Positions 17,326-54,494 of a stretch of DNA of 64,000 nucleotides are shown piece by piece (positions within the stretch are counted from its first letter, which is position 1; the number at the start of each line of letters is the position of its first letter). Below the pieces are notes generated by a model. That model saw only the letters and a list, made by a program, of their open reading frames with translations. It had not been told where the DNA came from and did not search any database. Where the stretch lies: assembly GCF_054482525.1 (NCBI RefSeq), contig NZ_CM137006.1, one strand, 5' to 3'. Position numbers and translations under genes: made by a program.

Positions 17326-18168
17326 TCAGGCTGAGAGCACAGAAGGAAAGTACCTGGCTATTATATCGTTAATTCTGTCAATCAGTTCCAGCCTTTTGAA
17401 AGTGATGTGTGCAGATCCCTTCTTAAAGTATTTAATGATGAACATCTCGTCTTCATAGCGCTCTTTACCCTGAACGGACTGGATGTGACCATCCAGACGA
17501 ATAGTGATGTTTTCCCGGTTGTCGGGGATCGGTTTGCCGCTGAACAGATGTAGCATTCTTTCCAGGTCGACGAGTCGGTCAGTCTGTTGCCCGGTGATAA
17601 GATGAAACCCCCACCGGTCCCACCTCACCAGGTTGTTGACGATAATTTTACTGCCAAATTTGCAGGGGCAATTGGTTTTGTAATTCCAGCTCAGTCCCCT
17701 GAAGACGTTGATCACCCCTCGCTCAAACACCTCATCCTTATTCTGGTGTAGTTGTTCAAATGTGCTCAGAATGTTCGCTTCACTGATTTCCGGAAAATTA
17801 TCGTGCTCCAGTGACCGGTACCATGTATCACGGGCCTGTGCATCCATTAAGGAAAGCATCCCTGAACGTTGCATCAGGTCACGCCAGATTTCGCGATCGA
17901 GATTGCGTGTGATAGCTTTCATTGCGGTTTCCGGTTTCTCCATCAGCCAGCAGCCGCAGCGAAAATCCTGTTTCATGGCCCAGTCCGGGGCGGCTTTACC
18001 GCCAATACTTTCTGTCATTGCTGAGATTTCAGCCAGTTGCCGGATAAGTGTGTCGATTTGCAGCAGTGTACTTTTTCGTACAGCCAGAATGTGGCGGATA
18101 CTGGTTGAGCAGATAACGTCCGTATGCCCGGTGACCACTTCCGGATGGGAGATTGTGATGTTTGACAT
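17326..18168 (-). CDS. Conserved island protein, probably DUF4942 family (CP4-44-like module, copy 1)
   Basis: 280 aa; paralog of 45243-46109; occupies the module-terminal position after the YeeW-like genes. Confidence 0.6.
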   Translation of the reverse strand: MSNITISHPEVVTGHTDVICSTSIRHILAVRKSTLLQIDTLIRQLAEISAMTESIGGKAAPDWAMKQDFRCGCWLMEKPETAMKAITRNLDREIWRDLMQRSGMLSLMDAQARDTWYRSLEHDNFPEISEANILSTFEQLHQNKDEVFERGVINVFRGLSWNYKTNCPCKFGSKIIVNNLVRWDRWGFHLITGQQTDRLVDLERMLHLFSGKPIPDNRENITIRLDGHIQSVQGKERYEDEMFIIKYFKKGSAHITFKRLELIDRINDIIARYFPSVLSA

Positions 18169-18252
18169 TATCGGTTTCCCTTTTGGTTTATAAACGAAAA
18201 CGCCAGCCGTATTCAGGCTGGCGTCAGGGTAATGAAGCGTGGTGAGTGATAT

Positions 18253-18450
18253 TCACCGGTTCTGGTGCAGAAGCTGCAGATGACGCAGGGTACGGACATC
18301 CTCTCTGGCCTGTTCGATACAGGGCAACAGTGCTGCCGAATCCGTTCTATCCTCATCGTTGTCAAAGATAATTCCCGATTCGCAGTCGATATTGTCCTGC
18401 AGCCACGCAATGAGGATATCCAGCGCTGTTTCCGTGGTTAATGATTTCAT
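18253..18450 (-). CDS. Small conserved protein downstream of yeeW-like gene (copy 1)
   Basis: MKSLTTETALDILIAWLQDNIDCESGIIFDNDEDR...; start placed at ATG 18450 behind AGGAACAAC; paralog at 46194-46391. Confidence 0.5.
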   Translation of the reverse strand: MKSLTTETALDILIAWLQDNIDCESGIIFDNDEDRTDSAALLPCIEQAREDVRTLRHLQLLHQNR

Positions 18451-18461
18451 GTTGTTCCTGG

Positions 18462-18950
18462 TTATCAGTCGAAAGTGGGCAGGTCCGGCAGACATTCAGC
18501 GCTGGCATCCAGATGAATGAGACTGACGCCATAACGTTGGATGAGTGTGACAAACAGACGACGGAACGTTTTTGACAGCCCCAGGCGTTTAAGCCGCAGA
18601 ACCGGATATGATCACGCATCGGTACGTAACAGATATCCGCTACCTGTGAAATGAATCCATTCTGATTCGCCGAAGTCACTGGTCTGGTGTGACAGTGAGT
18701 ACAACCAGGCGTTGTCCGTTTCCGTGATATGTGCGGTACTGCAGCGTATGCCGGCAAGGGTTGCAAATGGCGGTGGTGTGCAGGTTGACTGTTGGTCGGA
18801 TTCCTCTGCCACACGGAGTGAATAATCGTTTTCAGCGACGTTATTAATCAGTTCAGTGAGATTAACACCATCGACGTCAACGACAATTCGCCCCATGTTC
18901 AGTGCCTGCACATTAATGCTGTCGGCTTCCAGCATCAGGGAAAGTTTCAT
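18462..18950 (-). pseudogene. YeeW-like protein, truncated by a TGA nonsense codon at codon 113 (copy 1)
   Basis: Copy 2 (46403-46894) reads through TGG (W) where copy 1 has TGA; downstream frame in copy 1 still encodes SYPVLRLKRLG... Confidence 0.55.
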
Positions 18951-19321
18951 CGTTTCTCCGGATGCTTACCCAGGGTAATGTTATTTACCGTTCTGTAATT
19001 GTCGCGGGTCATCAGGCCGGTCGCCCTGCGAGCCCGGAGGATATCGATGCTGTTTATTAACTGAGAGCGGGTACAGGCACTGAATTCCGGCTGGTCGGTA
19101 CGCACCAGTGCGTATTTTTCAACAAGAAAGTTCACTGCATCGCACAGTGAAATGCCAGCTTCAATATGCTGCTCAATCACACGTTCATCGGCGAACGGTG
19201 TGTCATTCAGCGTAAGGCCGTAATGCTGGTCCAGCAACCGGGACAGCAGTGTCTGCCAGATGGTGACGGGAGACGGGCAGCGCGATGCCTCCCGTACGTG
19301 TGTGTCGGGTAATGTTTTCAT
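18947..19321 (-). CDS. cbtA: CbtA/YeeV-family toxin
   Basis: 124 aa, [56 protein letters not shown]... Confidence 0.85.
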
Positions 19322-19410
19322 ACTGAAGGTTTTCCTGATATGCAGAGATGAAAAATGGAAAAGTGGCGTGGTGAAAGCACCAGGCCGGAGCAGAAGGTTA
19401 TTCCGGTGGT

Positions 19411-19791
19411 TTACTTTTTCGTTTCGGATGTTGGATAAACAGCCAGATAAACGTAACCACAGCTGCCGAGGGTGTCGGCTTCGCAGGTCAGCCCTTTCGC
19501 ATACAGTGTGACGGTATGCTGATGGCGGGGATTCAGTTCACCGCCGGTGAGCATGAGTTCCAGTTGTTTCATCAGCAGCGGAAAGGCCTGGTCCAGGTGG
19601 TACGCATCCGCGTCGCTGAACAGGCCTCTGATACCGGCGCGGTCGGCAAGGTAATGCAACCGGTTACCCTCCTGCACCAGACGTGCCCCGAAACAGGGCG
19701 TCACGGTGCAGGGTAGCCCCCCACCAGGGGCGGTTGTTGTTGTCGGGATGCGTTGTCCCGGGGAGTGTGTCTGACACGATAAAATCCTCAC
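19411..19791 (-). CDS. cbeA: CbeA/YeeU-family antitoxin, N-terminal frameshift relative to copy 2
   Basis: Residues after ~25 match YeeU ([31 protein letters not shown]...); copy 1 has a 6-C run at 19727-19732 where copy 2 has 5. Confidence 0.7.
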
Positions 19792-19856
19792 AGAAAATCG
19801 GTTAAGAATGGTCCGGTGGTGGCGATAATTCTGCTCATCTGAATGCCCTTCCAGAC

Positions 19857-20078
19857 TCAGTTCAGGGTGACGCTCATCAGCCGGACATACGGGCCAAAAC
19901 TGTCCTTACGGCGTTCAGCAAACACAGCCAGCACACCGGGAATATCCTGCACTTCACGACCGGTATACGTCTCAGCACTGCCGTGCCAGCGGTACTTACC
20001 GGTACAGAACGGAAAAAGACGGGATGCAGGATGCTGTTGGTGAATACGCATGGCTTCACCACGGGTGATAATTTTCAT
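19857..20078 (-). CDS. yeeT: DUF987/YeeT-like protein
   Basis: 73 aa, MKIITRGEAMRIHQQHPASRLFPFCTGKYRWHG...; conserved position between radC-like and cbeA. Confidence 0.7.
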   Translation of the reverse strand: MKIITRGEAMRIHQQHPASRLFPFCTGKYRWHGSAETYTGREVQDIPGVLAVFAERRKDSFGPYVRLMSVTLN

Positions 20079-20146
20079 GATGGGATACCTCTGAAGACAG
20101 AAGATAAAAGTGAAAACAAGTGTGATGTGGTTGTGACGGTGACGGG

Positions 20147-20638
20147 TTAAAGCAGACCGTGTTCGGCAAAGGAGAAAACCTGGTTGCCACCGACTATCAG
20201 ATGGTCCGGCACCCGGATATCCACCAGGCCCAGTGCCTGTACCAGACGTTCCGTGATAAGGCGGTCTGCCTTACTGGGTGTGACTTCACCGGACGGGTGA
20301 TTGTGCGCCAGCACCACGGCAGCGGCATTGTGGTACAGGGCGCGTTTAATCACTTCCCGGGGATGGACTTCCGTGCGGTTGATGGTGCCGGTGAAGAGGG
20401 TTTCACCGGCAATCAGCTGATTCTGGTTATTCAGATACAGTACCCGGAACTCTTCACGCTCCAGTCCCGCCATGTTCAGAATCAGCCATTCCCGTGCCGC
20501 ACGGGTGGAGGTGAAGGCCACGCCGGGTTCATGAAGATGGCGTTCCAGGGTTTTCAGGGCCCGCAGAATGAGACTGCGCTCGCCGGGCGTCATCTCTCCT
20601 GGCAGAAAGGAAAGTTGTTGCATTGTGCTTCTCTCCAT
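20147..20638 (-). CDS. yeeS: RadC-like JAB-domain protein (YeeS/YkfG/YfjY family)
   Basis: 163 aa; JAMM-like motif HNHPSGEVTPSKAD. Confidence 0.85.
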   Translation of the reverse strand: MERSTMQQLSFLPGEMTPGERSLILRALKTLERHLHEPGVAFTSTRAAREWLILNMAGLEREEFRVLYLNNQNQLIAGETLFTGTINRTEVHPREVIKRALYHNAAAVVLAHNHPSGEVTPSKADRLITERLVQALGLVDIRVPDHLIVGGNQVFSFAEHGLL

Positions 20639-21124
20639 TCAGTCGATGATGCGCATAATGGCGCTGCATTCCGGATGCTGCAGGGCGTAATCCCGCAGCC
20701 GGTAATAATGGACCGTCATGGCATAACACTCCGTACGACAGGCATGATGACTGTACGTCATCAGACAGGCAGCAATGCCGGCGGCTTCCGGGCTCATTTC
20801 AGCGCGGTTACCGTTCATGACATTGAACAGTACCCATGTTTCGTCATCATCGTCATCCGGTTCGGGTGCCATAAATGCCCCTCCGTTATTCAGTGTGTAC
20901 AGATTCCAGATACCACCGCAGTAGTCTTCACACAGACGGTCCATCCAGCCGAAGACACGGGGCTCCAGGGTCACCCACTGTGGAATGAGGCCAAAGTGCT
21001 GTGGCCAGAAGCTGATGCACTGTTCATCAGGGACGGGAGTGGCAACCAGTTGAGACTGGTTATTCCCTGATGCAGTAGTTACGGAAACAGAAGGTGTGGT
21101 GGAATTATGTGAAACGGTTGTCAT
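20639..21124 (-). CDS. Antirestriction protein (KlcA/ArdB-like, YfjX/YafX family)
   Basis: Start placed at ATG 21124 (MTTVSHNS...) behind AAGGA; acidic DDDDDE stretch; paralog at 48551-49036. Confidence 0.8.
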   Translation of the reverse strand: MTTVSHNSTTPSVSVTTASGNNQSQLVATPVPDEQCISFWPQHFGLIPQWVTLEPRVFGWMDRLCEDYCGGIWNLYTLNNGGAFMAPEPDDDDDETWVLFNVMNGNRAEMSPEAAGIAACLMTYSHHACRTECYAMTVHYYRLRDYALQHPECSAIMRIID

Positions 21125-21214
21125 GATATTATTCCTTATAAAAAGCAAATGAATGAAGAAGGCTCGGGGGCAGGGACAGACGTGAGTCAGGACGGCGCTT
21201 TCAGGTAAACGGTA

Positions 21215-22033
21215 TCAGCGCATGTTCTCCAGCAGCGTTTCCGCCATCACCCATAATGCGCGATTGAGCTTAATATCGGTGTCGATGCTGTGAATGGCCC
21301 GGGTATGGATACGTTTTCCTCTGGCACTGCGGCCGGAAATTCCGCCTTTCAGCATATTCTCCTGGATGGTCTGATATGCGCTCCACAGGTCCTTACCGTA
21401 ATCCTCCCTGCGTCGTGGCGTAAGAATGTCAGCGGTGGTGACGGGCTGATGTTCGTCACCATAACGGTAAGTCAGGGCCGCCTGTGCCAGCGCCTGGCGT
21501 GCCGGTGGCGGCAGGACCAGCGACTGCATGGCATCACGCTTCTCCTCTATCCGGTCAAACACGCCCACCACCTCGTAAGCCCCTTCGATAACTTTCTCCA
21601 CTACATTTCCCCGGTGTGGAACACGCACTTCCCCCAGAGACTGGCCACAGACGCACCCGTTCTGGCAGACGAACCTGAAGTAACCCGGCAGCATCTGGTA
21701 GCTGGAGGTACCGTCATGAGAGTTGAGCAGAATAATTTCAGGGACATGTTCTCCGTTTATCTCTCCGGCCCGCCGCAGACGCAGCATGTGTTTGGTATAT
21801 TCCCGGCGGCTCTGGTCGCGCACACGGGTCTGGCAGGCGAAGAACGGCTGAAAGCCTTCCCGCTGCAGATTTTCCAGGACGGTAATGGTGGGAATGTACG
21901 CATACCGTTCACTGCGGGAGGTGTGCCGGTCTTCCCCAAAAATACTGGGTACATGGCGTATCAGTTCTTCATGTGTCAGCGGACGGTCACGGCGTATCTG
22001 GTTTACATGACCAAAACGACTTGCTAATCGCAT
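21215..22033 (-). CDS. DUF932-family protein (YfjQ/YafZ-like)
   Basis: 272 aa; conserved module position; paralog at 49128-49946. Confidence 0.7.
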   Translation of the reverse strand: MRLASRFGHVNQIRRDRPLTHEELIRHVPSIFGEDRHTSRSERYAYIPTITVLENLQREGFQPFFACQTRVRDQSRREYTKHMLRLRRAGEINGEHVPEIILLNSHDGTSSYQMLPGYFRFVCQNGCVCGQSLGEVRVPHRGNVVEKVIEGAYEVVGVFDRIEEKRDAMQSLVLPPPARQALAQAALTYRYGDEHQPVTTADILTPRRREDYGKDLWSAYQTIQENMLKGGISGRSARGKRIHTRAIHSIDTDIKLNRALWVMAETLLENMR

Positions 22034-22123
22034 GATTTGCTCCTTATGAATGAGTTAGCGGTATAAATGAAAAAGCCGCGTCTTCTGGAGAAGACGCGGC
22101 CTGATGGATCAAGTGAATGACGT

Positions 22124-22357
22124 TTATTGCCTGAGAATTCCCTCACTGGCGAGATACGGATTTAGCTGTTTTCCGGCATCAGGTTCAAAATTCCAGCACC
22201 GCCAGCGTAGCTGCCCTTCAGCATTGCGAATAACCAACCGGAAATGTGTTCCCTGGTCATCTTCAATAAGCACATTAAGGTAAGCCGTTGTGACGGCAAG
22301 TGCCTGGTTGCGTGAGAAAGGGCCTTCGGGCAATAAACGTGATGTACAACCCGGCAT
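22124..22357 (-). CDS. DUF905-family small protein
   Basis: 77 aa; paralog at 50037-50246 (…[15 protein letters not shown]…). Confidence 0.6.
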
Positions 22358-22427
22358 ATCTGTTGCTCCCTGTAAGTAAAAGGCCCCGGTAATGATGACC
22401 GGGGCCTGAAGGGGAGTGACCTGATTA

Positions 22428-25274
22428 TCAGAAAGTCACGTTCAGTGTGGCCTGACCGTTATAACCTTCAGCGCTGCTGCCGCTGACACTGTGGGCATAA
22501 CCGGCCTGAACGCCCAGGGTGATATTTTCCCGGACACGGGCTTCCAGTCCGGCCTGCAGGTCCAGTGACGTGCCATTCTGGGACGGTGAGAACGTCATGT
22601 TACTGCCGGCTGCGGCTGTACCCATGCTCATGTCTCCCCGGGAGCTGAAGGTGCGGATAACAGAAGGCTGTACCCACCAGTTCACCGGCAGTTCACTCAC
22701 GCTGTGTTTGGCACTGTCGCGCAGGGTGTCACGGGATGAGGTGCCTTCGCCAAAGGTCATATCGTTGTGGCTGCCCAGACGGAAACCGGCACGCACATGT
22801 TGTGCACTGCCATGCCCGAACTTCACATAACCGGCGTTATCCTGACCGTCATCCAGGGAGAGCCCCTGCCAGGTGTACTGCAGTTGTGGCTCCAGCATCA
22901 GGTTGTCAGTGATACTGAAGGGCAGACCGGTTTCCAGTGAGCCCAGCCAGCCCCAGCCCCGGGCGCGGAAGTCGTTATTGTCCGATGACGCTTTCATGCT
23001 GTGGCGGGTTCCCTGTGCCACAATGTCAGCCCACAGGCCGGAGGATGTGTGTACCAGATTCAGGTATCCGCCCAGACTGCCGGCATCATCCCGGACCGTG
23101 CCGGCGCGGGAGCCGTCATCATCCTTAACATCAACGGAAGAATGGCCTGCAGCACCATACACCCCTGTCGTCAGAGACATACCGGCAACCTCTGTTCTGA
23201 GCAGGTCACCCTCCAGACGGACGAAGCCATAGCTGCCGCTGCTTTCCGGCGTGGCCCCACGGGCAATACCGCCGTTGTTATCGTGCCCGAGATGACCGCC
23301 CTGAATGCTGAGACGGACGCTGTTATTTTCACCGTTTACACCGGTCTGATGGCTGCGGGAGCCTGCCAGAATCCGGTCATAGTCCATTGCCTGTGTCAGC
23401 ATGGAGGCATACAGGGGGACTTCAGCACGATAAGCATTTTCACTGCGCAGGTACCAGTCTTCATCGCTGTCACGGTTCAGGGTGTAGTTAAAGGCGCCGG
23501 CCTGAAGCGGGCGGCTCAGGGCAAACGCACCTTCTTCTGTGGTGGCACCATTCTGTGCATCCACAACCCGGATACCCTGTCCGGTGGTTGCCACCCCGAG
23601 GTTACTGTTTCCGACATTTGTGAACGCAAGCCAGGTTTTGCCGGTTGCCTGGCCACCATTAATCACCAGCTGGTCAGAGGCATTGCTGCCATCAAGGCGA
23701 ACACGCATATTGATGGTGCCCCCCTGACCGGTGAGGTTACTGGTGGTCAGTTTATGGAACGTTACCGGGGAGTCGCCTTTTGCAACAGCACGGCTCAGCG
23801 CGGCATCCGGTGTCGTCTGATTATCAAAGTGAATCTCTCCTGCGTTAACAATATCGCCGGTACTGACCACATCACCATTCAGTACCATGCTGGCGCCTTT
23901 ACTGAGCTGTGTTCTGCCACTCAGACTTCCCCCGGCAGCCAGCGTCAGTGTTCCACGATGTCCGACAGTGGTGTTGCCTGCCTGTCCCCCGGCATTAACC
24001 GTAAAGCTGCCGCCATTTTCCAGTAGCAGGCCGCTGGCCTGCCCGGATATGCCATCAATACTGAACTTACCGCTGGCATTGGTCCCCTCAACAGTGGCAC
24101 CACTGTCTGCTATCAGGGCACCACCGGATGTCATGGTGACATCTGTTGCCTTACCACCGGCAGACACTGCCAGGGTACCGCCGTCATCCACCAGTGTTTT
24201 CTGCGCTGAATGGCCCTCCAGTACATCCAGGCGACCGCCGGACTCCAGAACAACGCCGTCAGCCTTACCGTTTTCCACCGTGAAATTGCCCAGACGGTTG
24301 CTGCCGGTGACGGTTGCCGCCGTACTGGTGACCAGTGCGCCGCCCTGCGTCAGGGTGACATTCGTGGCTGTACCACCGGCGTTCACCTGCAGTTTGCCTT
24401 TCTGGTTAACGGTGGTGAAATCCGCCAGACCACCTTCCTTGATAATCTGCCAGCCGTCACTGTTAACAACAGTGCCAGACGCCGTACCGCCGTTGTGCAC
24501 ATACTGGTACCCCCCATTCAGCGTGGTATCCAGTGCGTGACCATGTACAGTCTGGTCGCCGCCGGCATAAACCACAGTGGTATTTGCCGTTCCTTCAGCA
24601 GCCACAATCTGACGACCATTTTTATTGATGGTGGTGCGTACGGCATCTCCGTAGACGGTCTGCCCGGTATCACCATTTTCCGCATCCGGTCCTCCTTCCG
24701 CGCCAGTATTCACAACCGTGTCGGTTGCCATTGCGCCGGATTTGACGGCCTGCCAGCCCTTCTCATTAATGACGGTACCCGTTGCAATCCCGCCTTCATG
24801 TACCCACTGCTCACCGCCGTTCAGAGTGGTGTTCACTGCCTGCCCCTGAAGGCTCTGTCCGCCTCCGGCCCTGATAACCGTGTCTGAAACGCTTCCTCCG
24901 GCATTCACTCTCTGAAGACCACCACCGGTGACAGTAGTGTTGTTGGCGATACCGCCATTTTGTATCCATTGCCCGCCGGTATTGGCCTCGTTATCCGGCC
25001 CATACTCCAGACCGGTACTGATGGTCATTCCGTTGGCTGTACCGAAGACAATCTGGTTGTCATGATTTTCCAGTGCTCCGCCGCTCACGGTTTCTCCCGC
25101 CTGTACAACCGTGTCAGCAGCCAGTACCGGGAGTGATGTGACAGCAGCAAGAGACAGCGCAACCGCCACACCGGCGCGTTTTCCCCGTGAGCGGGCCAGT
25201 TCGGAGGCCACCACCAGGGTGCCCGTAATGTGATTCCATACCAGCCTGTAGCTGGTGTTCAGATGTCGTTTCAT
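22428..25274 (-). CDS. flu: Antigen 43 (Ag43/Flu) self-associating autotransporter adhesin
   Basis: Start at [18 protein letters not shown] (ATG 25274 behind AAGGAAAA); extended signal peptide, repetitive passenger, C-terminal beta-barrel ending ...[12 protein letters not shown]. Track ORF starts 75 nt upstream. Confidence 0.9.
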
Positions 25275-25487
25275 CAGCTTTTCCTTACAGAGGGTGAATA
25301 AAAAAGCCGGTACCCACAAATGTGGATACCGGCAGGTACAAAACAGCATGGTCAGATAAAGTGGTTTTTCCCGGACATAAATGCTTCCCCTCTCTCATCC
25401 GCCTGAGAAGTATCAGTCCGTTGTGTGCAATTCCGTTCTGCATGATGAAGAGATTCAGCTGCCTTTTCGCAGGCCATTAACCACTAT

Positions 25488-25531
25488 AAACGATCGATAT
25501 AAACGATCGATATCTGTTTTATCGATCGTTT
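25488..25531 (-). promoter_or_regulatory. agn43 phase-variation switch: three GATC sites (Dam/OxyR region)
   Basis: GATC at 25492, 25505 and 25524 inside AAACGATCGATATAAACGATCGATATCTGTTTTATCGATCG, about 220-250 bp upstream of the Ag43 start. Confidence 0.6.
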
Positions 25532-25646
25532 TATTCTATTAATAACAAGGCAGCCACGCAAGAGAAACAGGAGGAGTATGAGGGGTTTGTGTCATGTTTT
25601 CAGTTGGTTAACGCAATGTAATCAGGCATTTCCTCTGGCAGAGTGT

Positions 25647-26519
25647 TCAGAAGAAAATCCAGTTCCATACAGCGCGGGCAACAGAGACCACCGAGTCACG
25701 GACGGCACGCAGAACCGTGCGTGCAACAGAGGCAATACAGACGCTCTCCGCTGTGTCAAATATCCGGTCCACCGCACCGGTAAACTGTTCACGGGCCTGA
25801 GACCGGACAGATTCCGTGCGCAGCTCGTCCTGCAGGCGGGTCATCAGGGGACTGGCGGCATGGTCGGGAAGCGCTGTCATGAGCGCACTGACCAGCGTAT
25901 CCAGTTCCCAGCCGGTGCGGGCCGATACGGCCACAACCGGATGTACGGGCCGGAACAGACGGAATACCGCCTCCGTTTTTTCGCGAATATTCTGTGCCTG
26001 TGCGGGAGAAGGCTGAATACCGGCCATATCCCATTCATGGCAGGGCTCCGTTTTGTCGGCCTGCGTCACCACAAACAGCACCTGCTGATGTCCCCGGTGC
26101 AGGATGTGTCGCCAGAAATACTCATCCACAGACAGGGCGCGGTCATCGGCTTTAATCAGCCACAGCACCAGGTCCAGTTCGGGCAGAATGTCACGGTACA
26201 GGGCTTCATACTCTGCATCTCTGTCCCGGCTCTCGCCCACCCCGGGCAGGTCAGTGATAACCATGCTGTGACCGTGGCCACTCAGACGGAAGCGCCGCAC
26301 TTCCCGGGTGCCGGCGTGAACATCACTGACCGGGGTGACCTCCCCCTGAAACAGTGCATTACAGAGTGAGGATTTACCGGCCCCGCTTTTACCCATAATG
26401 CCAATCACGGGTTCGTGACTGGTGAGTTTGCGCAGATGTTCCAGGATGTGACGGGAAAGTGAGTAAGGCAGGGAGGAGAGCGGTTTTTCAATTGCCTCAA
26501 TGGCATCAGACGGATTCAT
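25647..26519 (-). CDS. yeeP: YeeP/YfjP/YkfA-family GTPase (copy 1)
   Basis: P-loop GIMGKSGAGKSSLCNALF and DLPG motif; start placed at ATG 26519 (the longer track ORF begins with GTG and no SD). Confidence 0.8.
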   Translation of the reverse strand: MNPSDAIEAIEKPLSSLPYSLSRHILEHLRKLTSHEPVIGIMGKSGAGKSSLCNALFQGEVTPVSDVHAGTREVRRFRLSGHGHSMVITDLPGVGESRDRDAEYEALYRDILPELDLVLWLIKADDRALSVDEYFWRHILHRGHQQVLFVVTQADKTEPCHEWDMAGIQPSPAQAQNIREKTEAVFRLFRPVHPVVAVSARTGWELDTLVSALMTALPDHAASPLMTRLQDELRTESVRSQAREQFTGAVDRIFDTAESVCIASVARTVLRAVRDSVVSVARAVWNWIFF

Positions 26520-26748
26520 ACATGTATTCCCGGTGAAAAAAGACAAAACCCCGCACACCGGAAAGATGGCGGGGGGATTCACGGAGATAATATCTGCCTG
26601 AAATTATTTGGAATGCAGGTATATGTGGCTGATTTGTATCAGCTAATGAGTACAGGTCTGAATCTAATCTGACAGTCCGCTCTGTGCCAGGAGCGGACAT
26701 TGTTTTCCAACTATTACCTAAGCCTGCGAACCATCTCATCTTCACCCC

Positions 26749-27636
26749 TTAAATTCTCAATGTATCGATAACCGCTCGTAGGGCGGGTGACACATTGCGG
26801 TGCGGATAATAGATATATGAACCCTCCAGGCGTTGGCTGTAGCATTGCAAAACTCTGATTAGCGCCCCCTGTTCTATATCATCAGACACTAATTCCTCCG
26901 GAACATAGGCCAGCCCCAGACCTAGCCTTGCGGCTTTGGCTTCCATATAACTGTCAGCAAAGGCCCATTGTCCCTGAGGCTGATGGGTGATCTTTTTACC
27001 GTCCTGATTGAGTTCCCAGACATACAGACTGCCGTCGCCGAACTGGTAAGCGATGCAGGGATGACCTACTAAATCGGTGGGGGTTTGTGGAAATCCGTAG
27101 CGCTGAAAGTGCCCGGGCGTGCCGACAACAGCCATCTCCATATCGGGCGAAATGCGCACCGCAACCATACCGCTATCCACTTCCGAGCCCAGACGTATAC
27201 CGGCATCGAAGCGCTCAGTAATAATATCGACAAACCGGCTTTCGCTGATGAGCTCCAGCCGAATATCCGGGTATCGTTGTTTAAACACCGCCAGCTTCGG
27301 CAGCAGCACTTTATCAATGGCGTGCTGGCTCGCATTAATTCGGACCGTACCCGATGGTGTATGGCGATAATGGGCCAGTGTGGCAAGCCCCATATCTAAG
27401 GCGTCAAATCCAGATTCGACGTTTCGATAGAGTAACTCGCCGGCATGGGTGAGCGATAACTTGCGCGTGGTGCGTACCAGAAGCTGCACGCCCAGTCGCT
27501 CTTCCAGCTCGCGCACTGCACGGCTAATTCCTGATTGCGCCAGGCCAAGCCTCTGCGCGGCGGCGGTAAAACTCCCTTCTCGCACGACCTGCATAAACAG
27601 ATAGAGATCGTTATAGTTTTCCCGTTTCGCCATCAT
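26749..27636 (-). CDS. LysR-family transcriptional regulator
   Basis: 295 aa; N-terminal HTH FTAAAQRLGLAQSGISRAVRELEERLGVQLL plus LysR substrate-binding domain. Confidence 0.85.
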   Translation of the reverse strand: MMAKRENYNDLYLFMQVVREGSFTAAAQRLGLAQSGISRAVRELEERLGVQLLVRTTRKLSLTHAGELLYRNVESGFDALDMGLATLAHYRHTPSGTVRINASQHAIDKVLLPKLAVFKQRYPDIRLELISESRFVDIITERFDAGIRLGSEVDSGMVAVRISPDMEMAVVGTPGHFQRYGFPQTPTDLVGHPCIAYQFGDGSLYVWELNQDGKKITHQPQGQWAFADSYMEAKAARLGLGLAYVPEELVSDDIEQGALIRVLQCYSQRLEGSYIYYPHRNVSPALRAVIDTLRI

Positions 27637-27788
27637 CCTTCCCCTGCTGCATCACAATTCAGAACAATATGTTATTAATCTTAGCATTTTTTACCCTCTA
27701 ATTAGCACTATTAATGCTAACTATAATGTGCGCGTTGCAACAAAGCACAGCAGTGTTATCCGTATGAAACCAGTATCTGGCATATTTT

Positions 27789-28940
27789 ATGAGGGGGATT
27801 TTGATGACTGCTTTCACCCAAAAATTGACAGCCGCGATACCCACCATGCTGTTATGCGTATCATTAAGTGGAGTCACAAATATGAGTTACGCTGATACAA
27901 CCAATCCGAACGCGCCCGTTTCGCAGGTCGAGAAATGGGATAAAACTTTTGCTGAGAGCACGAAAGTTGATCACCGTAAGGTGACCTTTCCGAACCGGTA
28001 CGGGATCACCTTAGTCGGGGATCTCTATATACCGAAGGATCGTGGCGATCGCAAGCTGGCAGCAATTGCTGTTAGTGGCCCCTTCGGGGCGGTGAAAGAG
28101 CAATCCAGCGGCCTGTATGCGCAGACGCTGGCTGAACGGGGGTTTGTCACTCTGGCTTTTGACCCTTCATACACGGGTGAAAGCGGTGGCTACCCGCGAA
28201 ACGTCGCATCTCCGGATATCAACACCGAGGATTTCAGCGCGGCGGTTGATTTCTTAGGCCTGCAAAAAGAGGTGGATCGCAACCGTATCGGGTTGCTCGG
28301 CATCTGCGGATGGGGTGGCATGGCCTTAAACGACGCCGCGATGGACACACGTGTCAAGGCGGTGGCGAGCAGCGTGATGTATGACATGAGCCGTGCAATG
28401 GGGCATGGCGTGGGCGATGGCAAAGACCGCTATACCACTGCCGATCGTCGTGCCGTATTGCAGTATTTGAACATGCAGCGCTGGAAGGATGCTGAAAATG
28501 GCGCTTTCGCGCCAGGCGGGCATGATATTTACGTTGATGAGAAGGGCAACGTCACCGCTTCCGATCGTATTTTACCGGAAACTTTGCCAGCGAATTCTAA
28601 TCCGGTATTGAAAGAGTTCTTTGATTATTACCGCATGCCGCGTGGTTTCCATGCGCGTTCGGTCAACTCAACCAGTGCCTGGAATGCAACCATGCCTCTG
28701 TCATTTATGAATATGCCGCTGCTGAGTTACGCTAATGAAGTTACTATCCCTACACTCATCGTGACCGGTGAAAAAGCCCATTCACGCTATTTTGCTGAAG
28801 ATGCCTTTAAGGCAATCGGCAGCAAAGAGAAAGAGTTAGTGATTGTCCCCGAGGCAAACCATGTTGATCTGTACGACAACGTTGCGGGTAAGATCCCATT
28901 TGCCAAATTTGAGCAATTTTTCAAGGCAAACTTAAGATAA
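27789..28940 (+). CDS. Secreted alpha/beta-fold hydrolase (dienelactone-hydrolase-like)
   Basis: 383 aa; signal peptide ending ...NMSYA; GxCxWG nucleophile-elbow-like LGICGWGG; divergent from the LysR gene. Confidence 0.7.
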   Translation: MRGILMTAFTQKLTAAIPTMLLCVSLSGVTNMSYADTTNPNAPVSQVEKWDKTFAESTKVDHRKVTFPNRYGITLVGDLYIPKDRGDRKLAAIAVSGPFGAVKEQSSGLYAQTLAERGFVTLAFDPSYTGESGGYPRNVASPDINTEDFSAAVDFLGLQKEVDRNRIGLLGICGWGGMALNDAAMDTRVKAVASSVMYDMSRAMGHGVGDGKDRYTTADRRAVLQYLNMQRWKDAENGAFAPGGHDIYVDEKGNVTASDRILPETLPANSNPVLKEFFDYYRMPRGFHARSVNSTSAWNATMPLSFMNMPLLSYANEVTIPTLIVTGEKAHSRYFAEDAFKAIGSKEKELVIVPEANHVDLYDNVAGKIPFAKFEQFFKANLR

Positions 28941-51071: not shown

Positions 51072-51956
51072 TCAGAACAGGTGATCCCACAGTGTGACCA
51101 GTAGGTGGATAATGCGGGCCCGGGCTTTACGCAGAAGCTGTAACATCCAGGCCGGAAAACTGAACCGGGCAACGGCGTCGTCAAAACTTTTCCCGATGGC
51201 GTCACCAAAAGTCTGTTGTGCGTGTTTCCGGGCCTGTTCAGAGCGGTTTTCCCCCCGGATATGTGAATAAACCGCGCTGGTTGCCTGTGGTGGCAGTGCG
51301 TGGATCATCAGTGACACCAGTGCCGGAAGATTCCAGCCGACAGGCGCTGCAACGGAGAGTACCGGAAATGATGACGGGAACAGGGTGGCCACCCGGGCTG
51401 TTACTGTCGCCAGTGAGAGTTCCTGCTGACGGGACGGGCATTTTTCTGCGTCGTTCCATTCTTCAGCAGGAAACACGCGATCGGCATGGCTGAGAACAAA
51501 CAGAAAACGCGAGGGATCTGCACCTTCATTCAGTAAAAACTGATGCATGGCAATATCAGCAGCATACGCACGTTCATCAGCCCGCAGGATCCAGATAATC
51601 AGATCCAGTTCCGGCAGTAACTGACGGTAAAGCTCCCGGTATTCCTGATCATGCTGCGGTGTTTCACCAATGCCGGGCAGATCGACCAGCGTCATTCTGC
51701 GTTCACCAATCTGCAGGGTGAGGCGATGAGCCTGGCGGGTGCAGCCGTTCAGGGGATGCGTGGCGCAGATACGGGACTGAAAAATGGCATTACACAGACT
51801 GCTTTTGCCGGTGCCGGATTTACCCATAATGCCAATCACGGGCTCGTAATGAATAACACCGTGGAGATGTTCAAGGATTTTCTGGCGAATTTCTTCAGGA
51901 AGAAACGTCAGATATGATTTCACTTGTGCGGAGAGGGAAGAATGGCTGAATGACAT
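51072..51956 (-). CDS. YeeP/YfjP/YkfA-family GTPase (copy 2)
   Basis: 294 aa; P-loop GIMGKSGTGKSSLCNAIF, DLPGIG. Confidence 0.85.
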   Translation of the reverse strand: MSFSHSSLSAQVKSYLTFLPEEIRQKILEHLHGVIHYEPVIGIMGKSGTGKSSLCNAIFQSRICATHPLNGCTRQAHRLTLQIGERRMTLVDLPGIGETPQHDQEYRELYRQLLPELDLIIWILRADERAYAADIAMHQFLLNEGADPSRFLFVLSHADRVFPAEEWNDAEKCPSRQQELSLATVTARVATLFPSSFPVLSVAAPVGWNLPALVSLMIHALPPQATSAVYSHIRGENRSEQARKHAQQTFGDAIGKSFDDAVARFSFPAWMLQLLRKARARIIHLLVTLWDHLF

Positions 51957-52062
51957 ACCGGTATCCTGTTGATTTCACTGAACCGGATCACACTAATCCG
52001 GTTTATCATTCAGGTAATATGGGCGTGAAAAAATCTGGAGTGACAAAGTGTGGAGGGAAGAG

Positions 52063-52995
52063 ATGACTGCACAACAGATTGATGCATTACGCGACATTGT
52101 TAATAAGGCCAGAGTTACCGCCATTTGTAAAAGTCCGGCCTGGAAATATACTCTGCGAATACTGAAGCGCAGCAGACTCGTGTACAGAGGAGAACGGTCA
52201 GAATCGTTTGATCCGGAGAAACATTTTAATCGTTATACGGTGCGTTATCTGTACCTGCTTAACATAATGGCACTTGAGCTAAAGTCAGATACACGGATTA
52301 AGGTTGAGGTAGGTCAATGGTATCGCATGACGGGTAAACGTTTATCACTTAATGTCCCGCCTTTTATGCTGATTCCGCGTAATATCCGGAGAAAAGTGGA
52401 TGGATTCAGACAATCAGAAGGCGAAGCAACAAAACAAACGGCTCAACCGTTCACGGGCAGTTTGTATGAGGTTTTGAGCAGGGATAACGATTCGGCTGAG
52501 CTGGACGCCTGGTTTGCTGAACCACCGCTGACACGACAGGAAGTGCGGGAGGGGAGGCGTGTCACAGATTTTAATCCATGGGCGCAGTCTTCGTTTATTT
52601 GCCGTTCAGCATCCCCGACGTTTGAACTTTTTTACCAGGAATATAAGCGACTGGGATTAAGTGTTTTTTTTGATCCGGAAAATAGAAAACCTTTTGAAAG
52701 TATAAAAAAACATTTCGGGGATAAACCACAGTTACTGGAGAGACTGGGGGATGTGTTGTTTTTCACGTCGCTTTATAACCAGGGATGTTTAGGGGAGTTT
52801 GTCAATGCGCTTGTGGAAAAGGAGGACATTTATCTGAAAGCGTCCCCCGGGGAAGAAAAGCTGAAAGCACACCAGAAAATGATTAACTACATTGAAGAGT
52901 TCTGCAACAAAATGACGGAAAAGTATCTGATATCCGCAGCCAGGAGACACTACCAAAAGAAGAAAATCGGCAGGAGCAGAAGTGGTGAAAGTTAA
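52063..52995 (+). CDS. Hypothetical protein A (unknown function)
   Basis: ATG 52063 behind GGAGGG; 310 aa; no recognised motif; divergent from the GTPase gene. Confidence 0.55.
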   Translation: MTAQQIDALRDIVNKARVTAICKSPAWKYTLRILKRSRLVYRGERSESFDPEKHFNRYTVRYLYLLNIMALELKSDTRIKVEVGQWYRMTGKRLSLNVPPFMLIPRNIRRKVDGFRQSEGEATKQTAQPFTGSLYEVLSRDNDSAELDAWFAEPPLTRQEVREGRRVTDFNPWAQSSFICRSASPTFELFYQEYKRLGLSVFFDPENRKPFESIKKHFGDKPQLLERLGDVLFFTSLYNQGCLGEFVNALVEKEDIYLKASPGEEKLKAHQKMINYIEEFCNKMTEKYLISAARRHYQKKKIGRSRSGES

Positions 52996-53822
52996 TACAG
53001 TCTGTGGTTCTGAATCACCAGCCTGTGGTTCTGAATCAGATGTTCCAGGACAGCCTGTTGTGTTGTTTTCAGTTCTCTGGTCAGTCTGTCCAGAGTACGT
53101 TTTGCATCTGATGATATTTTAACGTTGATTTGTACCCGCTTATCTTTTTTTCCGTCGGTAAACTGTTTTCGGAATGCATTGTGCATCTTGTCGAAAAATT
53201 TTTCTTTTGCGGCAACCCCATAGTGAAGTACTTTTGGCTGCTGTAAGTATGGTGTATCTGCGGGGAATAAAATTTTTAGTAAAACTACGATAGCAATGTA
53301 TCTTTCGTTATCACTTACAGGATAAAACCAGGAAAGATACGTGTGCGGGATGCGTGCATTGATATATTTCCATGCCCATTCGAGTTGTTCTGTATTCTTT
53401 TTAAGCCATTTGGCTTCGTTTCTCTTTTCGATCTGCAGCCAGTTTTGATGCATTGTTGAGATGAAGCAATCTGATTGATTGTCAAGGATTAATGCATTAA
53501 TCCATTTGCTTATAACATCCAGTCTCATTTCATGATCTGAAGGAATTGTTGTTATGGGTATACTCCCCGCAGGAATCAGCCCCATCATGGCTGTATTGAA
53601 CCCTAATTCATTACGAACCCCAAGGAGTTTGGGATCTGTGTTAATTATAACTAACCAGAACCAGAATGCTGCAATTTCATTTTTTTTAACCCATTCAGGT
53701 ATGTGATTATCTGTCAGTTGTTTATCATTCAACAAATACTCAATTGTTTCATTTTCCCAGCTATATCCATTCACGTTATAACCATCTTCATATTGTTTCA
53801 TCTGATTACGCCTCAATCGCAT
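52992..53822 (-). CDS. Hypothetical protein B (unknown function) with C-terminal ribbon-helix-helix-like segment
   Basis: Low-GC ORF; C-terminus ...VKISSDAKRTLDRLTRELKTTQQAVLEHLIQNH; alternative starts at 53801 or 53915; 3' end overlaps gene A by 4 nt. Confidence 0.5.
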   Translation of the reverse strand: MRLRRNQMKQYEDGYNVNGYSWENETIEYLLNDKQLTDNHIPEWVKKNEIAAFWFWLVIINTDPKLLGVRNELGFNTAMMGLIPAGSIPITTIPSDHEMRLDVISKWINALILDNQSDCFISTMHQNWLQIEKRNEAKWLKKNTEQLEWAWKYINARIPHTYLSWFYPVSDNERYIAIVVLLKILFPADTPYLQQPKVLHYGVAAKEKFFDKMHNAFRKQFTDGKKDKRVQINVKISSDAKRTLDRLTRELKTTQQAVLEHLIQNHRLVIQNHRLY

Positions 53823-54494
53823 TCTCTTCTGGTGATTTTCACTATCACATGGAAATCGAATATGCAAGGAAGTTAACAAAAAAACATTGCATCCGGACTT
53901 GTGTTCAAAAAGCAATCACTTCAAGGCTTGATCACTCTGTGAGATGCTGAAGAACTATTCTCTAACTATTCACGATCTATTCTTGATCTATTCATAATAA
54001 ATTAAAACATGCTATCAACTACTGCTCATATCCTCCTTGGGTGTGTCGTTGTACTGTTCGACTGTTCTTGTGGTCAGATTAACAATCTGAAGAGTAAAAG
54101 CGACAGTAATCTGTCTGTTATAGTGGCGATAAAAACACTGAATGCGCATCCTGTATGTGAAATCCTGTCATGTGGAGCAGTAAGCAATGACAGGCATGCA
54201 TGTTATATGTGAAGGGGGCCGGGAGACGACATAATCAGTATGGCTGTCATTCTGGTTGTAAAACGCGATCACTTTCCGGGGGTAAAAGATGATATGGAAG
54301 CTGACAAACGGTTTGCTTCGGATTGTCTTTTCTGGGGCCTGAAATACGGGGACAGAAAAATAATTCCAGAGTAAATCTGCTCCGTTTTCAGAACAAAAAT
54401 CCCCATGCTGGCCGTGAAAAACTGAAACGAACATTCAGTCTGCATGAGTGTCTGAAGATGTTGAGAATGTCGGTATGATACTATATACACATGT

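What the first reader, a model, noticed from the sequence alone, without database searches (positions are those of the whole stretch)
53002..53038. Tandem duplication at the 3' end of hypothetical gene B
CTGTGGTTCTGAATCA occurs twice with a 5-bp linker, duplicating the C-terminal residues (…LIQNHRLVIQNHRLY) next to the 4-nt overlap with gene A. It is either a slippage hotspot that changes the C-terminus or a cis element in the convergent overlap zone.
Basis: seen in the sequence. Interest (0 to 1): 0.3.

Follow-up and report, generated by a model that had tools for sequence, protein, structure and literature searches.

The report
Old fixed 21-bp in-frame tandem duplication
The repeat is real, but it is an ordinary, old and stably inherited 21-base duplication that adds seven amino acids to the tail of a probable DNA-binding domain in one E. 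coli allele lineage; nothing indicates a mutational hotspot or a regulatory site.

Summary
CTGTGGTTCTGAATCA lies at 53002-53017 and 53023-53038. The best-fitting duplicated unit is 21 nt, at 52997-53017 and 53018-53038. It falls in the last 14 codons of gene B (52992-53801, minus strand) and begins 2 nt after gene A's stop codon.

Comparison with relatives shows one old event rather than ongoing instability. All 230 complete E. coli genomes carrying this allele at 95% identity or more have exactly two copies; none has one or three. Two metagenome contigs and every full-length member read from the protein cluster also have two. All inspected alleles at 60-90% identity, and a 32%-identical outgroup, have one copy, so one copy is ancestral.

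The copies are diverging by point substitution only. Gene B belongs to a small island-associated family with a C-terminal ribbon-helix-helix (RHH) domain. An AlphaFold model runs the last helix through both heptads, so the duplication probably lengthens it by two turns. In this family the tail after that helix varies naturally from 4 to about 25 residues.

There is no terminator, promoter, Rfam match or significant fold at the repeat, and it is absent from orthologous loci. The cis-element reading is therefore unsupported. Interest is low.

The parts
52997..53017 (-). Copy 1 of the 21-nt duplicated unit (ACAGTCTGTGGTTCTGAATCA in the window; the ancestral first base was C). Together with the last base of copy 2 (53018) it encodes the second, C-terminal heptad VIQNHRL (residues 262-268), and it supplies the first base of the last codon.
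   Evidence: Phase scan; sequence; DNA alignment A1.
53018..53038 (-). Copy 2 of the 21-nt unit (CCAGCCTGTGGTTCTGAATCA). It encodes most of the first heptad LIQNHRL (residues 255-261). The T-to-C difference at 53022 is a synonymous AGA-to-AGG change shared by all two-copy alleles examined.
52992..53801 (-). Gene B: a 269-aa hypothetical protein (identical to a RefSeq/UniRef 'hypothetical protein' seen on at least 1000 contigs). It has an N-terminal helical domain of unknown function and a C-terminal RHH-like domain.
52998..53141 (-). Coding region of the probable ribbon-helix-helix domain (residues about 221-268): strand VQINVKIS, helix A 231-244, helix B 248-267. Helix B runs through both heptads.
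   Evidence: Weak Pfam RHH_1 and RepB-RCR_reg hits in all 5 E. coli alleles; stronger hits in distant family members; AlphaFold model at pLDDT 85-98 here.
52048..52995 (+). Gene A: a convergent hypothetical gene with no family match. Its stop codon (52993-52995) ends 2 nt before the duplicated unit, so the duplication does not touch its coding sequence.
52992..52995 (.). TTAA: the palindromic four bases that hold both stop codons of the convergent genes. It is conserved in all E. coli lineages and in a relative with only 30-32% protein identity.

Best explanation
A single, old 21-bp head-to-tail duplication arose in one allele lineage of gene B. The unit was CCAGTCTGTGGTTCTGAATCA, and replication misalignment is the inferred cause. 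Because 21 is a multiple of three, the reading frame was kept. The C-terminus changed from ...LIQNHRLD to ...LIQNHRL-VIQNHRL-D, and the Val codon was created by the junction itself. Seven residues are about two helical turns, so the insertion most probably just lengthens the last helix of the C-terminal RHH DNA-binding domain. This happens in a family where the tail after that helix is naturally variable in length. The change was tolerated (neutral or nearly so), became fixed in that lineage and is now inherited stably, with the two copies drifting apart by point mutation. It is neither a currently active length-variation hotspot nor a regulatory DNA or RNA element. Shown: the anatomy, the lineage distribution, the absence of copy-number variation and the polarity (one copy ancestral). 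Inferred: the mutational mechanism, the helix extension and the near-neutrality.
For: Two exact 16-nt cores inside 21-nt units. In 5,426 complete E. coli genomes, 230 carry the allele at 95% identity or more. The best matches of synthetic one-copy and three-copy queries are 93.5% and 93.9%, which is exactly a 21-nt gap, and no record reaches 95%; so all 230 have two copies. Every sampled row of the 60-90% identity classes that spans the repeat is 20-21 nt shorter, and four fetched representatives confirm one copy against two. The outgroups P0026 (32% identity), P0006, P0007 and P0008 end in a single ...LILNGRLD-type tail, so one copy is ancestral. A metagenome scan with a pattern that accepts 1, 2 or 3 copies found 2 contigs, both with two copies. 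All full-length members read from the 90% protein cluster are 269 aa. Changes since the duplication are point substitutions: shared AGA-to-AGG (synonymous), CAG-to-CAA (synonymous, L001), Q-to-K (L006), D269Y (window) and R-to-S (P0019). For the RHH domain, RHH_1 and RepB-RCR_reg hit all 5 alleles (best E 8.7e-4 and 3.3e-3), and 10 of 45 family members hit RepB-RCR_reg (best 7.3e-6). The AlphaFold model built on 45 sequences has mean pLDDT 80.7 and helix 248-267 through both heptads at pLDDT 85-95. Family tails after helix B range from 4 to about 25 residues.
Against: The 193 genomes at 99% identity or more may be a recently spread island lineage, so the evolutionary time sampled is limited. 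A modestly raised slippage rate, visible only by deep sequencing, is not excluded. Tandem duplications of this size can revert at about 1e-4 per cell in fission yeast (PMC8639346). No flanking microhomology is detectable, so the commonest described route, microhomology-mediated tandem duplication, is not demonstrated here. The first AlphaFold model, built on 10 sequences, left the tail non-helical at low confidence. Neutrality is assumed, not measured.
Confidence: 0.8

Rival explanations
1. Slippage hotspot: the two 21-nt copies misalign frequently during replication, so that populations carry one-, two- and three-copy alleles and the C-terminus of gene B varies.
For: Two 16-nt exact direct repeats 21 nt apart are a substrate for RecA-independent misalignment (established knowledge). 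Short tandem duplications revert at high rates in other organisms (PMC8639346). Elsewhere in the same locus small repeats do vary: the upstream 11-mer has 4 or 3 copies, an 8-mer has 2 or 3 copies, and one allele has FWFWFW instead of FWFW.
Against: None of the 230 complete genomes has one or three copies. None of 2 metagenome contigs does. No full-length cluster member differs from 269 aa. The two-copy state is shared by sub-lineages about 4.5% apart and has accumulated point differences between its copies. Only two copies of a long unit that keeps the frame is unlike known contingency repeats.
Confidence: 0.07
2. Cis element: the direct repeat is a binding site or an RNA structure that acts in the convergent overlap zone, for example in termination or stability of the gene A or gene B transcripts, or as a site for the RHH protein itself.
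For: The repeat starts 2 nt after gene A's stop codon. In the plus-strand RNA the two copies can pair with each other in a hairpin within a -22.9 kcal/mol fold that the one-copy alleles cannot form. RHH proteins typically bind tandem repeats (established knowledge).
Against: The second copy is absent from all other lineages of the same conserved two-gene module. The fold z-scores of -1.16 and -0.72 are not significant. No T-run follows the hairpin and no terminator- or promoter-like site lies on it. There is no Rfam match. The better operator candidate, GAATAGWT at an 11-nt period, lies upstream of gene B and is a different sequence.
Confidence: 0.05
3. Adaptive retuning: the extra heptad was selected because a longer C-terminal helix changes the oligomerisation, partner binding or operator spacing of the RHH regulator. 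For example, it could insulate this island's regulator from paralogous islands in the same genome.
For: The duplication has been kept without loss in 230 genomes. Two of the point changes inside it are synonymous. Genomes carry up to 3 paralogous copies of this region. The helix is predicted to continue through the insert with the hydrophobic pattern in phase.
Against: There are too few substitutions to test for selection. Tail length varies freely across the family. Non-synonymous changes also occur in the insert: D269Y, Q-to-K and R-to-S. No functional data exist for any family member.
Confidence: 0.08

Closest known systems
Short in-frame tandem duplications made by replication misalignment or slippage, including microhomology-mediated tandem duplications (PMC8639346; bioRxiv 10.64898/2026.02.28.708716)
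   Same: Two head-to-tail copies with no spacer, a single-copy state in outgroups, a length that is a multiple of three inside a gene, and later decay by point substitution.
   Different: No flanking microhomology can be seen at the reconstructed boundaries. No reversion or expansion is seen in any of the sequences examined.
Phase-variable contingency loci (simple-sequence repeats in Neisseria, Haemophilus and Campylobacter genes; established knowledge)
   Same: A repeat inside a coding region that could in principle change copy number by slippage.
   Different: Contingency repeats have units of 1-7 nt in many copies, usually shift the frame, and vary between close isolates. Here there are two copies of a 21-nt unit, the frame is kept, and no variation is seen.
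Ribbon-helix-helix (CopG/Arc/MetJ superfamily) regulators, in particular Pfam RepB-RCR_reg (PF10723) and RHH_1 (PF01402)
   Same: Gene B's last ~48 residues show the strand-helix-helix pattern and hit these models weakly but consistently across alleles. Distant family members hit them at E of 1e-5 to 1e-6.
   Different: The window protein scores below the Pfam gathering cut-offs (15.8-17.8 bits against 20.5-21). The domain sits at the end of a ~210-residue helical domain with no match in Pfam or the PDB. DNA binding is untested.
Bidirectional intrinsic terminators between convergent genes (established knowledge)
   Same: Its position, at the junction of two convergent genes.
   Different: There is no G+C-rich hairpin with flanking T and A runs, no terminator-like hit, and the genes overlap so that there is no intergenic space.

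Membership tests
Short tandem duplication (misalignment product) | Two adjacent head-to-tail copies of one unit with no spacer | tested here: met
   The phase scan gives 21 + 21 nt at 52997-53038 with 2 mismatches in each allele, only one of them shared; TRF reports period 21, 2.0 copies.
Short tandem duplication (misalignment product) | Single-copy state in related or outgroup sequences at the same position | tested here: met
   Alleles at 84%, 83% and 79% identity and the 32%-identical P0026 have one copy.
Microhomology-mediated tandem duplication (MTD subtype) | The repeat continues into a third, partial copy equal to the flanking microhomology | tested here: not met
   The base before the unit (T) differs from the last base of the unit (A), and the base after it (G) differs from the first base (C). 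Shifting the phase raises the mismatch count in L001 and does not lower it in the window, where 52997 and 52998 tie at 2.
Phase-variable / contingency repeat (slippage hotspot) | Copy number differs among closely related isolates | tested here: not met
   None of 230 complete genomes has one or three copies. 2 of 2 metagenome contigs have two copies. All full-length cluster members read are 269 aa.
Phase-variable / contingency repeat (slippage hotspot) | A change of copy number switches the reading frame or promoter spacing | tested here: not met
   The unit is 21 nt, or 7 codons, so the frame is kept at any copy number.
Phase-variable / contingency repeat (slippage hotspot) | Subclonal length heterogeneity within one culture | not testable with these tools
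   This needs amplicon deep sequencing.
Ribbon-helix-helix DNA-binding domain (gene B C-terminus) | Match to curated RHH profiles above their cut-off | tested here: inconclusive
   For the window protein, RHH_1 scores 15.8 bits (cut-off 20.5) and RepB-RCR_reg 17.8 bits (cut-off 21). All 5 alleles hit both models. Distant family members reach E = 7.3e-6 and 6.3e-5, and some also hit RHH_10, RHH_5 and CopG_antitoxin.
Ribbon-helix-helix DNA-binding domain (gene B C-terminus) | Short N-terminal strand followed by two helices | tested here: met
   The model has an extended segment at 221-230 (VQINVKIS), helix 231-244 and helix 248-267, at pLDDT 85-98. The strand cannot pair in a monomer model.
Ribbon-helix-helix DNA-binding domain (gene B C-terminus) | Dimerises and binds repeated operator DNA | not testable with these tools
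   Only a candidate operator was seen: GAATAGWT x4 at an 11-nt period, at 53953-53993.
Cis-regulatory element (terminator, operator or structured RNA) | Conserved at the same position in orthologous loci | tested here: not met
   The second copy is absent from all other lineages, although the gene pair and the TTAA overlap are conserved.
Cis-regulatory element (terminator, operator or structured RNA) | Recognisable signal: hairpin plus T-run, promoter hexamers, a significant fold or an Rfam family | tested here: not met

The most novel reading that the evidence does not exclude
The extra heptad is not neutral. By lengthening the last helix of the RHH domain by two turns, it would change the oligomerisation or partner specificity of this island-encoded regulator. 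That would insulate it from the paralogous regulators of sister islands, up to three of which share one E. coli genome, and would explain why the duplication has never been lost in 230 genomes.
Probability: 0.08. Interest if true: 0.35.

Novelty: new member of a known kind. Interest (0 to 1): 0.1.

Why it matters
It matters little. This is an allele-defining indel in an uncharacterised island gene and could serve as a lineage marker for that allele. Its main use is as a worked negative. The more useful by-products concern the gene, not the repeat. Gene B belongs to a small family (about 89 representatives at 50% identity) found next to AlpA and YagK/YfjJ genes in integrative islands. It has a C-terminal RHH domain and an N-terminal domain with no solved structural relative. 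It also has a variable 11-bp repeat array upstream that is a plausible operator.

Tried and rejected
- **Defence and family libraries:** PADLOC, PHROGs and NCBIfam scans of genes A and B gave no defence-system match and only sub-threshold RHH-type (replication regulator) matches.
- **PDB by sequence:** profiles of the whole protein and of the C-terminal 67 residues found nothing at E up to 10.
- **PDB by fold:** Foldseek of the good model found nothing below E = 0.4; the RNase III and MatP rows are noise-level.
- **Signals on the repeat:** the Rfam scan of 51900-54300 at E up to 1 found nothing. The terminator and promoter scan put no site on the repeat.
- **RNA folding:** folding both strands, with and without the second copy, showed that the two-copy plus strand can form an inter-copy hairpin, but its z-score of -1.16 is not significant.
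- **Microhomology:** a search at the duplication boundaries found none.
- **Operator resemblance:** by eye, the 3' repeat and the upstream GAATAGWT repeats share only GTTCT and GAAT, in a different register; I treated this as chance.
- **Failed call:** I replaced it with a pattern that has a fixed core between the gaps.
- **First model:** the first AlphaFold run, on 10 sequences, was too weak (pLDDT 62) to judge the tail.
- **Not used:** I left the genome-contig scan unspent because the question was already answered.

Full report

Yes. CTGTGGTTCTGAATCA lies at 53002-53017 and again at 53023-53038, with CCAGC between the two. Tandem Repeats Finder reports a 21-nt period, 2.0 copies and 95% matches at 52998-53038. 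These are the only exact copies in the 64-kb window. Shuffled sequence gave a mean of 0.5 matches even with three mismatches allowed.

As a raw ORF it spans 52992-53915. From the ATG that RefSeq annotates it spans 52992-53801 and encodes 269 aa. It ends ...LEHLIQNHRLVIQNHRLY*.

The convergent 'gene A' (52048-52995, plus strand) ends with TAA at 52993-52995. The two stop codons share the palindrome TTAA at 52992-52995.

**2. Exact anatomy of the duplication**

I tested every phase, in the window and in a 95%-identical allele (L001). The best unit is 21 nt, at 52997-53017 and 53018-53038. Combining the two alleles with the single-copy relatives gives the ancestral unit CCAGTCTGTGGTTCTGAATCA.

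- A perfect duplication of that unit inside ...CTG ATT CAG AAC CAC AGA CTG GAT TAA predicts ...L I Q N H R L V I Q N H R L D*. The Val codon is created by the junction (G|TG). It is not a later substitution.
- Only one difference between the copies is shared by all two-copy alleles I read: the synonymous AGA-to-AGG change at 53022.
- The window's A at 52997 (D269Y) and L001's synonymous CAG-to-CAA are specific to their sub-lineages.
- A metagenome contig carries a further Q-to-K change in one copy. One cluster member has R-to-S.
- There is no microhomology at the boundaries.
- The unit starts 2 nt after gene A's stop codon, so gene A's coding sequence is untouched.

**3. Copy number in relatives**

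The window is E. coli. A 701-nt query around the repeat matched 562 of 5,426 complete genomes: 193 at 99% identity or more, 37 at 95-99%, and 333 at 60-90%.

- **Distant alleles (60-90%).** In the rows listed from these classes, every match that spans the repeat is 20-21 nt shorter than the query. Fetched representatives of four classes confirm this: the 95% allele has two copies, and the 84%, 83% and 79% alleles have one, ending ...LILYGRLD...LILNRRLD and ...LILNGRLD.
- **Close alleles (95% or more).** I searched with synthetic versions of the window sequence carrying one copy or three. The best identities were 93.5% and 93.9%, which is exactly a 21-nt gap. No record reached 95%, and 230 records sat in the 90-95% band of the one-copy search. 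So all 230 genomes carrying this allele have exactly two copies.
- **Metagenomes.** A pattern with this allele's flanks that accepts one, two or three copies (validated on the window) found two contigs in the JGI metagenome collection. Both have two copies.
- **Protein cluster.** The window's exact protein is on at least 1000 contigs. All full-length members read from its 90% cluster are 269 aa; shorter ones are partial or frameshifted.
- **Outgroups.** P0006-P0008, and P0026 at 32% identity, have a single copy, so one copy is ancestral.

Copy number therefore follows allele lineage perfectly. The two-copy state has persisted across about 4.5% nucleotide divergence without loss or gain. This is the signature of one old event, not of a hotspot.

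**4. What the duplication sits in**

The locus lies in a CP4-type integrative island. In a strain whose sequence is identical to the window over the 701-nt query, the island sits next to cadCBA. It carries cbtA/cbeA, radC, an antirestriction gene, a YfjP/YeeP-like GTPase immediately beyond gene A, YfjI, and 'inovirus Gp2'/YagK-YfjJ genes.

Neither gene A nor gene B has a Pfam, NCBIfam, PHROG or PADLOC family above threshold. However, gene B's last ~50 residues hit RHH_1 and RepB-RCR_reg weakly in all five E. coli alleles, with best E-values of 8.7e-4 and 3.3e-3.

An exhaustive profile search found a small family of 89 representatives at E of 0.001 or better.

- Of 45 full-length members, 10 hit RepB-RCR_reg (best 7.3e-6) and 4 hit RHH_1 (best 6.3e-5). 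Single members hit RHH_10, RHH_5 and CopG_antitoxin.
- The family alignment shows the strand-helix-helix pattern (..LN..IS...K..L..LA...........E.LI..EY).
- After the 'LIxx' of helix B there is a tail that varies from 4 to about 25 residues.

AlphaFold with this 45-sequence alignment gave mean pLDDT 80.7. Helix A spans 231-244 and helix B spans 248-267, running continuously through both heptads at pLDDT 85-95. An earlier model on 10 sequences was too weak to judge.

The most likely structural effect is therefore a two-turn extension of the last RHH helix, with the hydrophobic pattern kept in phase because seven residues are about two turns. This is an inference from a monomer model.

The N-terminal ~210 residues have no sequence or fold relative in the PDB.

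**5. Is it a cis element?**

Nothing supports that reading.

- The convergent A/B pair with its TTAA stop overlap is conserved down to 30-32% protein identity (L008). The second repeat copy, in contrast, exists only in one lineage.
- No terminator-like or promoter-like site lies on the repeat, and there is no Rfam match at E up to 1.
- In the plus-strand RNA the two copies can pair with each other. The fold (-22.9 kcal/mol over 91 nt) is not better than shuffles (z = -1.16; minus strand z = -0.72), and no T-run follows it.

**6. Comparison with what is known**

The feature is a member of the well-known class of short in-frame tandem duplications produced by replication misalignment. Recent work describes such duplications as ubiquitous. 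It reports them as mostly flanked by microhomology and, in fission yeast, rapidly reversible (PMC8639346; bioRxiv 10.64898/2026.02.28.708716).

This case differs in showing no detectable microhomology and no reversion in the data available. It fails the defining tests of a contingency locus: it does not vary between close isolates, and a change of copy number would not shift the frame.

**7. Verdict**

The 'hotspot' and 'cis element' readings are not supported. This is an ordinary, fixed allele difference of low interest (0.1).

What remains untested is subclonal instability, which needs deep sequencing, and any functional effect of the longer helix.

Noticed in passing
window 53953-53993 (minus-strand orientation, about 150-190 nt upstream of the gene B ATG at 53801): There are four tandem copies of GAATAG(A/T)T at an exact 11-nt period (one helical turn), just downstream of a conserved TTGATAGCATGTTTTA motif. 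Arrays of GAATAGTT-like repeats are present upstream of gene B in all five lineages, but in different numbers. The window has 4 and the 95% allele L001 has 3. A class of E. coli genomes matches at 94.4% identity with a span 11 nt shorter. This is a plausible operator for the RHH protein, and it is the repeat in this locus whose copy number really does vary.
   Followed up: partly
window 54052-54067 (minus strand); L001 equivalent: The 8-nt unit GAACAGTC/GAACAGTA is present twice in the window and three times in the 95% allele L001 (alignment A4). This is another small copy-number difference in the gene B upstream region.
   Followed up: no
gene B residues 47-50 (window about 53652-53663); protein P0002: One 97%-identical allele (P0002, 271 aa) reads FWFWFW where all others read FWFW. 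This is a 6-nt in-frame tandem expansion elsewhere in the same gene.
   Followed up: no
window 52992-52995; L008 1148-1151: The convergent stop-stop overlap on the palindrome TTAA is conserved between gene pairs whose proteins are only 30-32% identical. This suggests that genes A and B form an old two-gene module, next to the YfjP/YeeP-like GTPase. The function of both genes is unknown.
   Followed up: partly
gene B residues 1-215 (window 53157-53801): The N-terminal helical domain is modelled with good confidence (pLDDT blocks mostly 85-96). It has no Pfam family and no PDB match by sequence or by Foldseek (best E = 0.42). Distant family members sit next to AlpA and YagK/YfjJ genes, so this is an uncharacterised island-associated regulator family.
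   Followed up: partly
proteins P0020 and P0021 (partial; contigs of 930 and 437 nt): Two draft-assembly contigs end exactly inside the first repeat copy (...LIQNHSL and ...LIQNHRL). This may be an assembly-graph break at the repeat or at the junction between paralogous islands. It is not evidence of biological variation.
   Followed up: no
window 52025-52059: Tandem Repeats Finder reports a 15-nt unit (GTGAAAAAATCTGGA) in 2.3 copies at 75% matches, around the annotated start of gene A.
   Followed up: no
L005 (E. coli str. Sanji, identical to the window over the 701-nt query), locus 17738-28701: In that strain the island's far side carries IS110 and IS1 remnants, a frameshifted ProQ/FinO gene and sul2. 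A resistance region therefore appears to have been inserted in or beside the island. I did not check this in the window itself.
   Followed up: no
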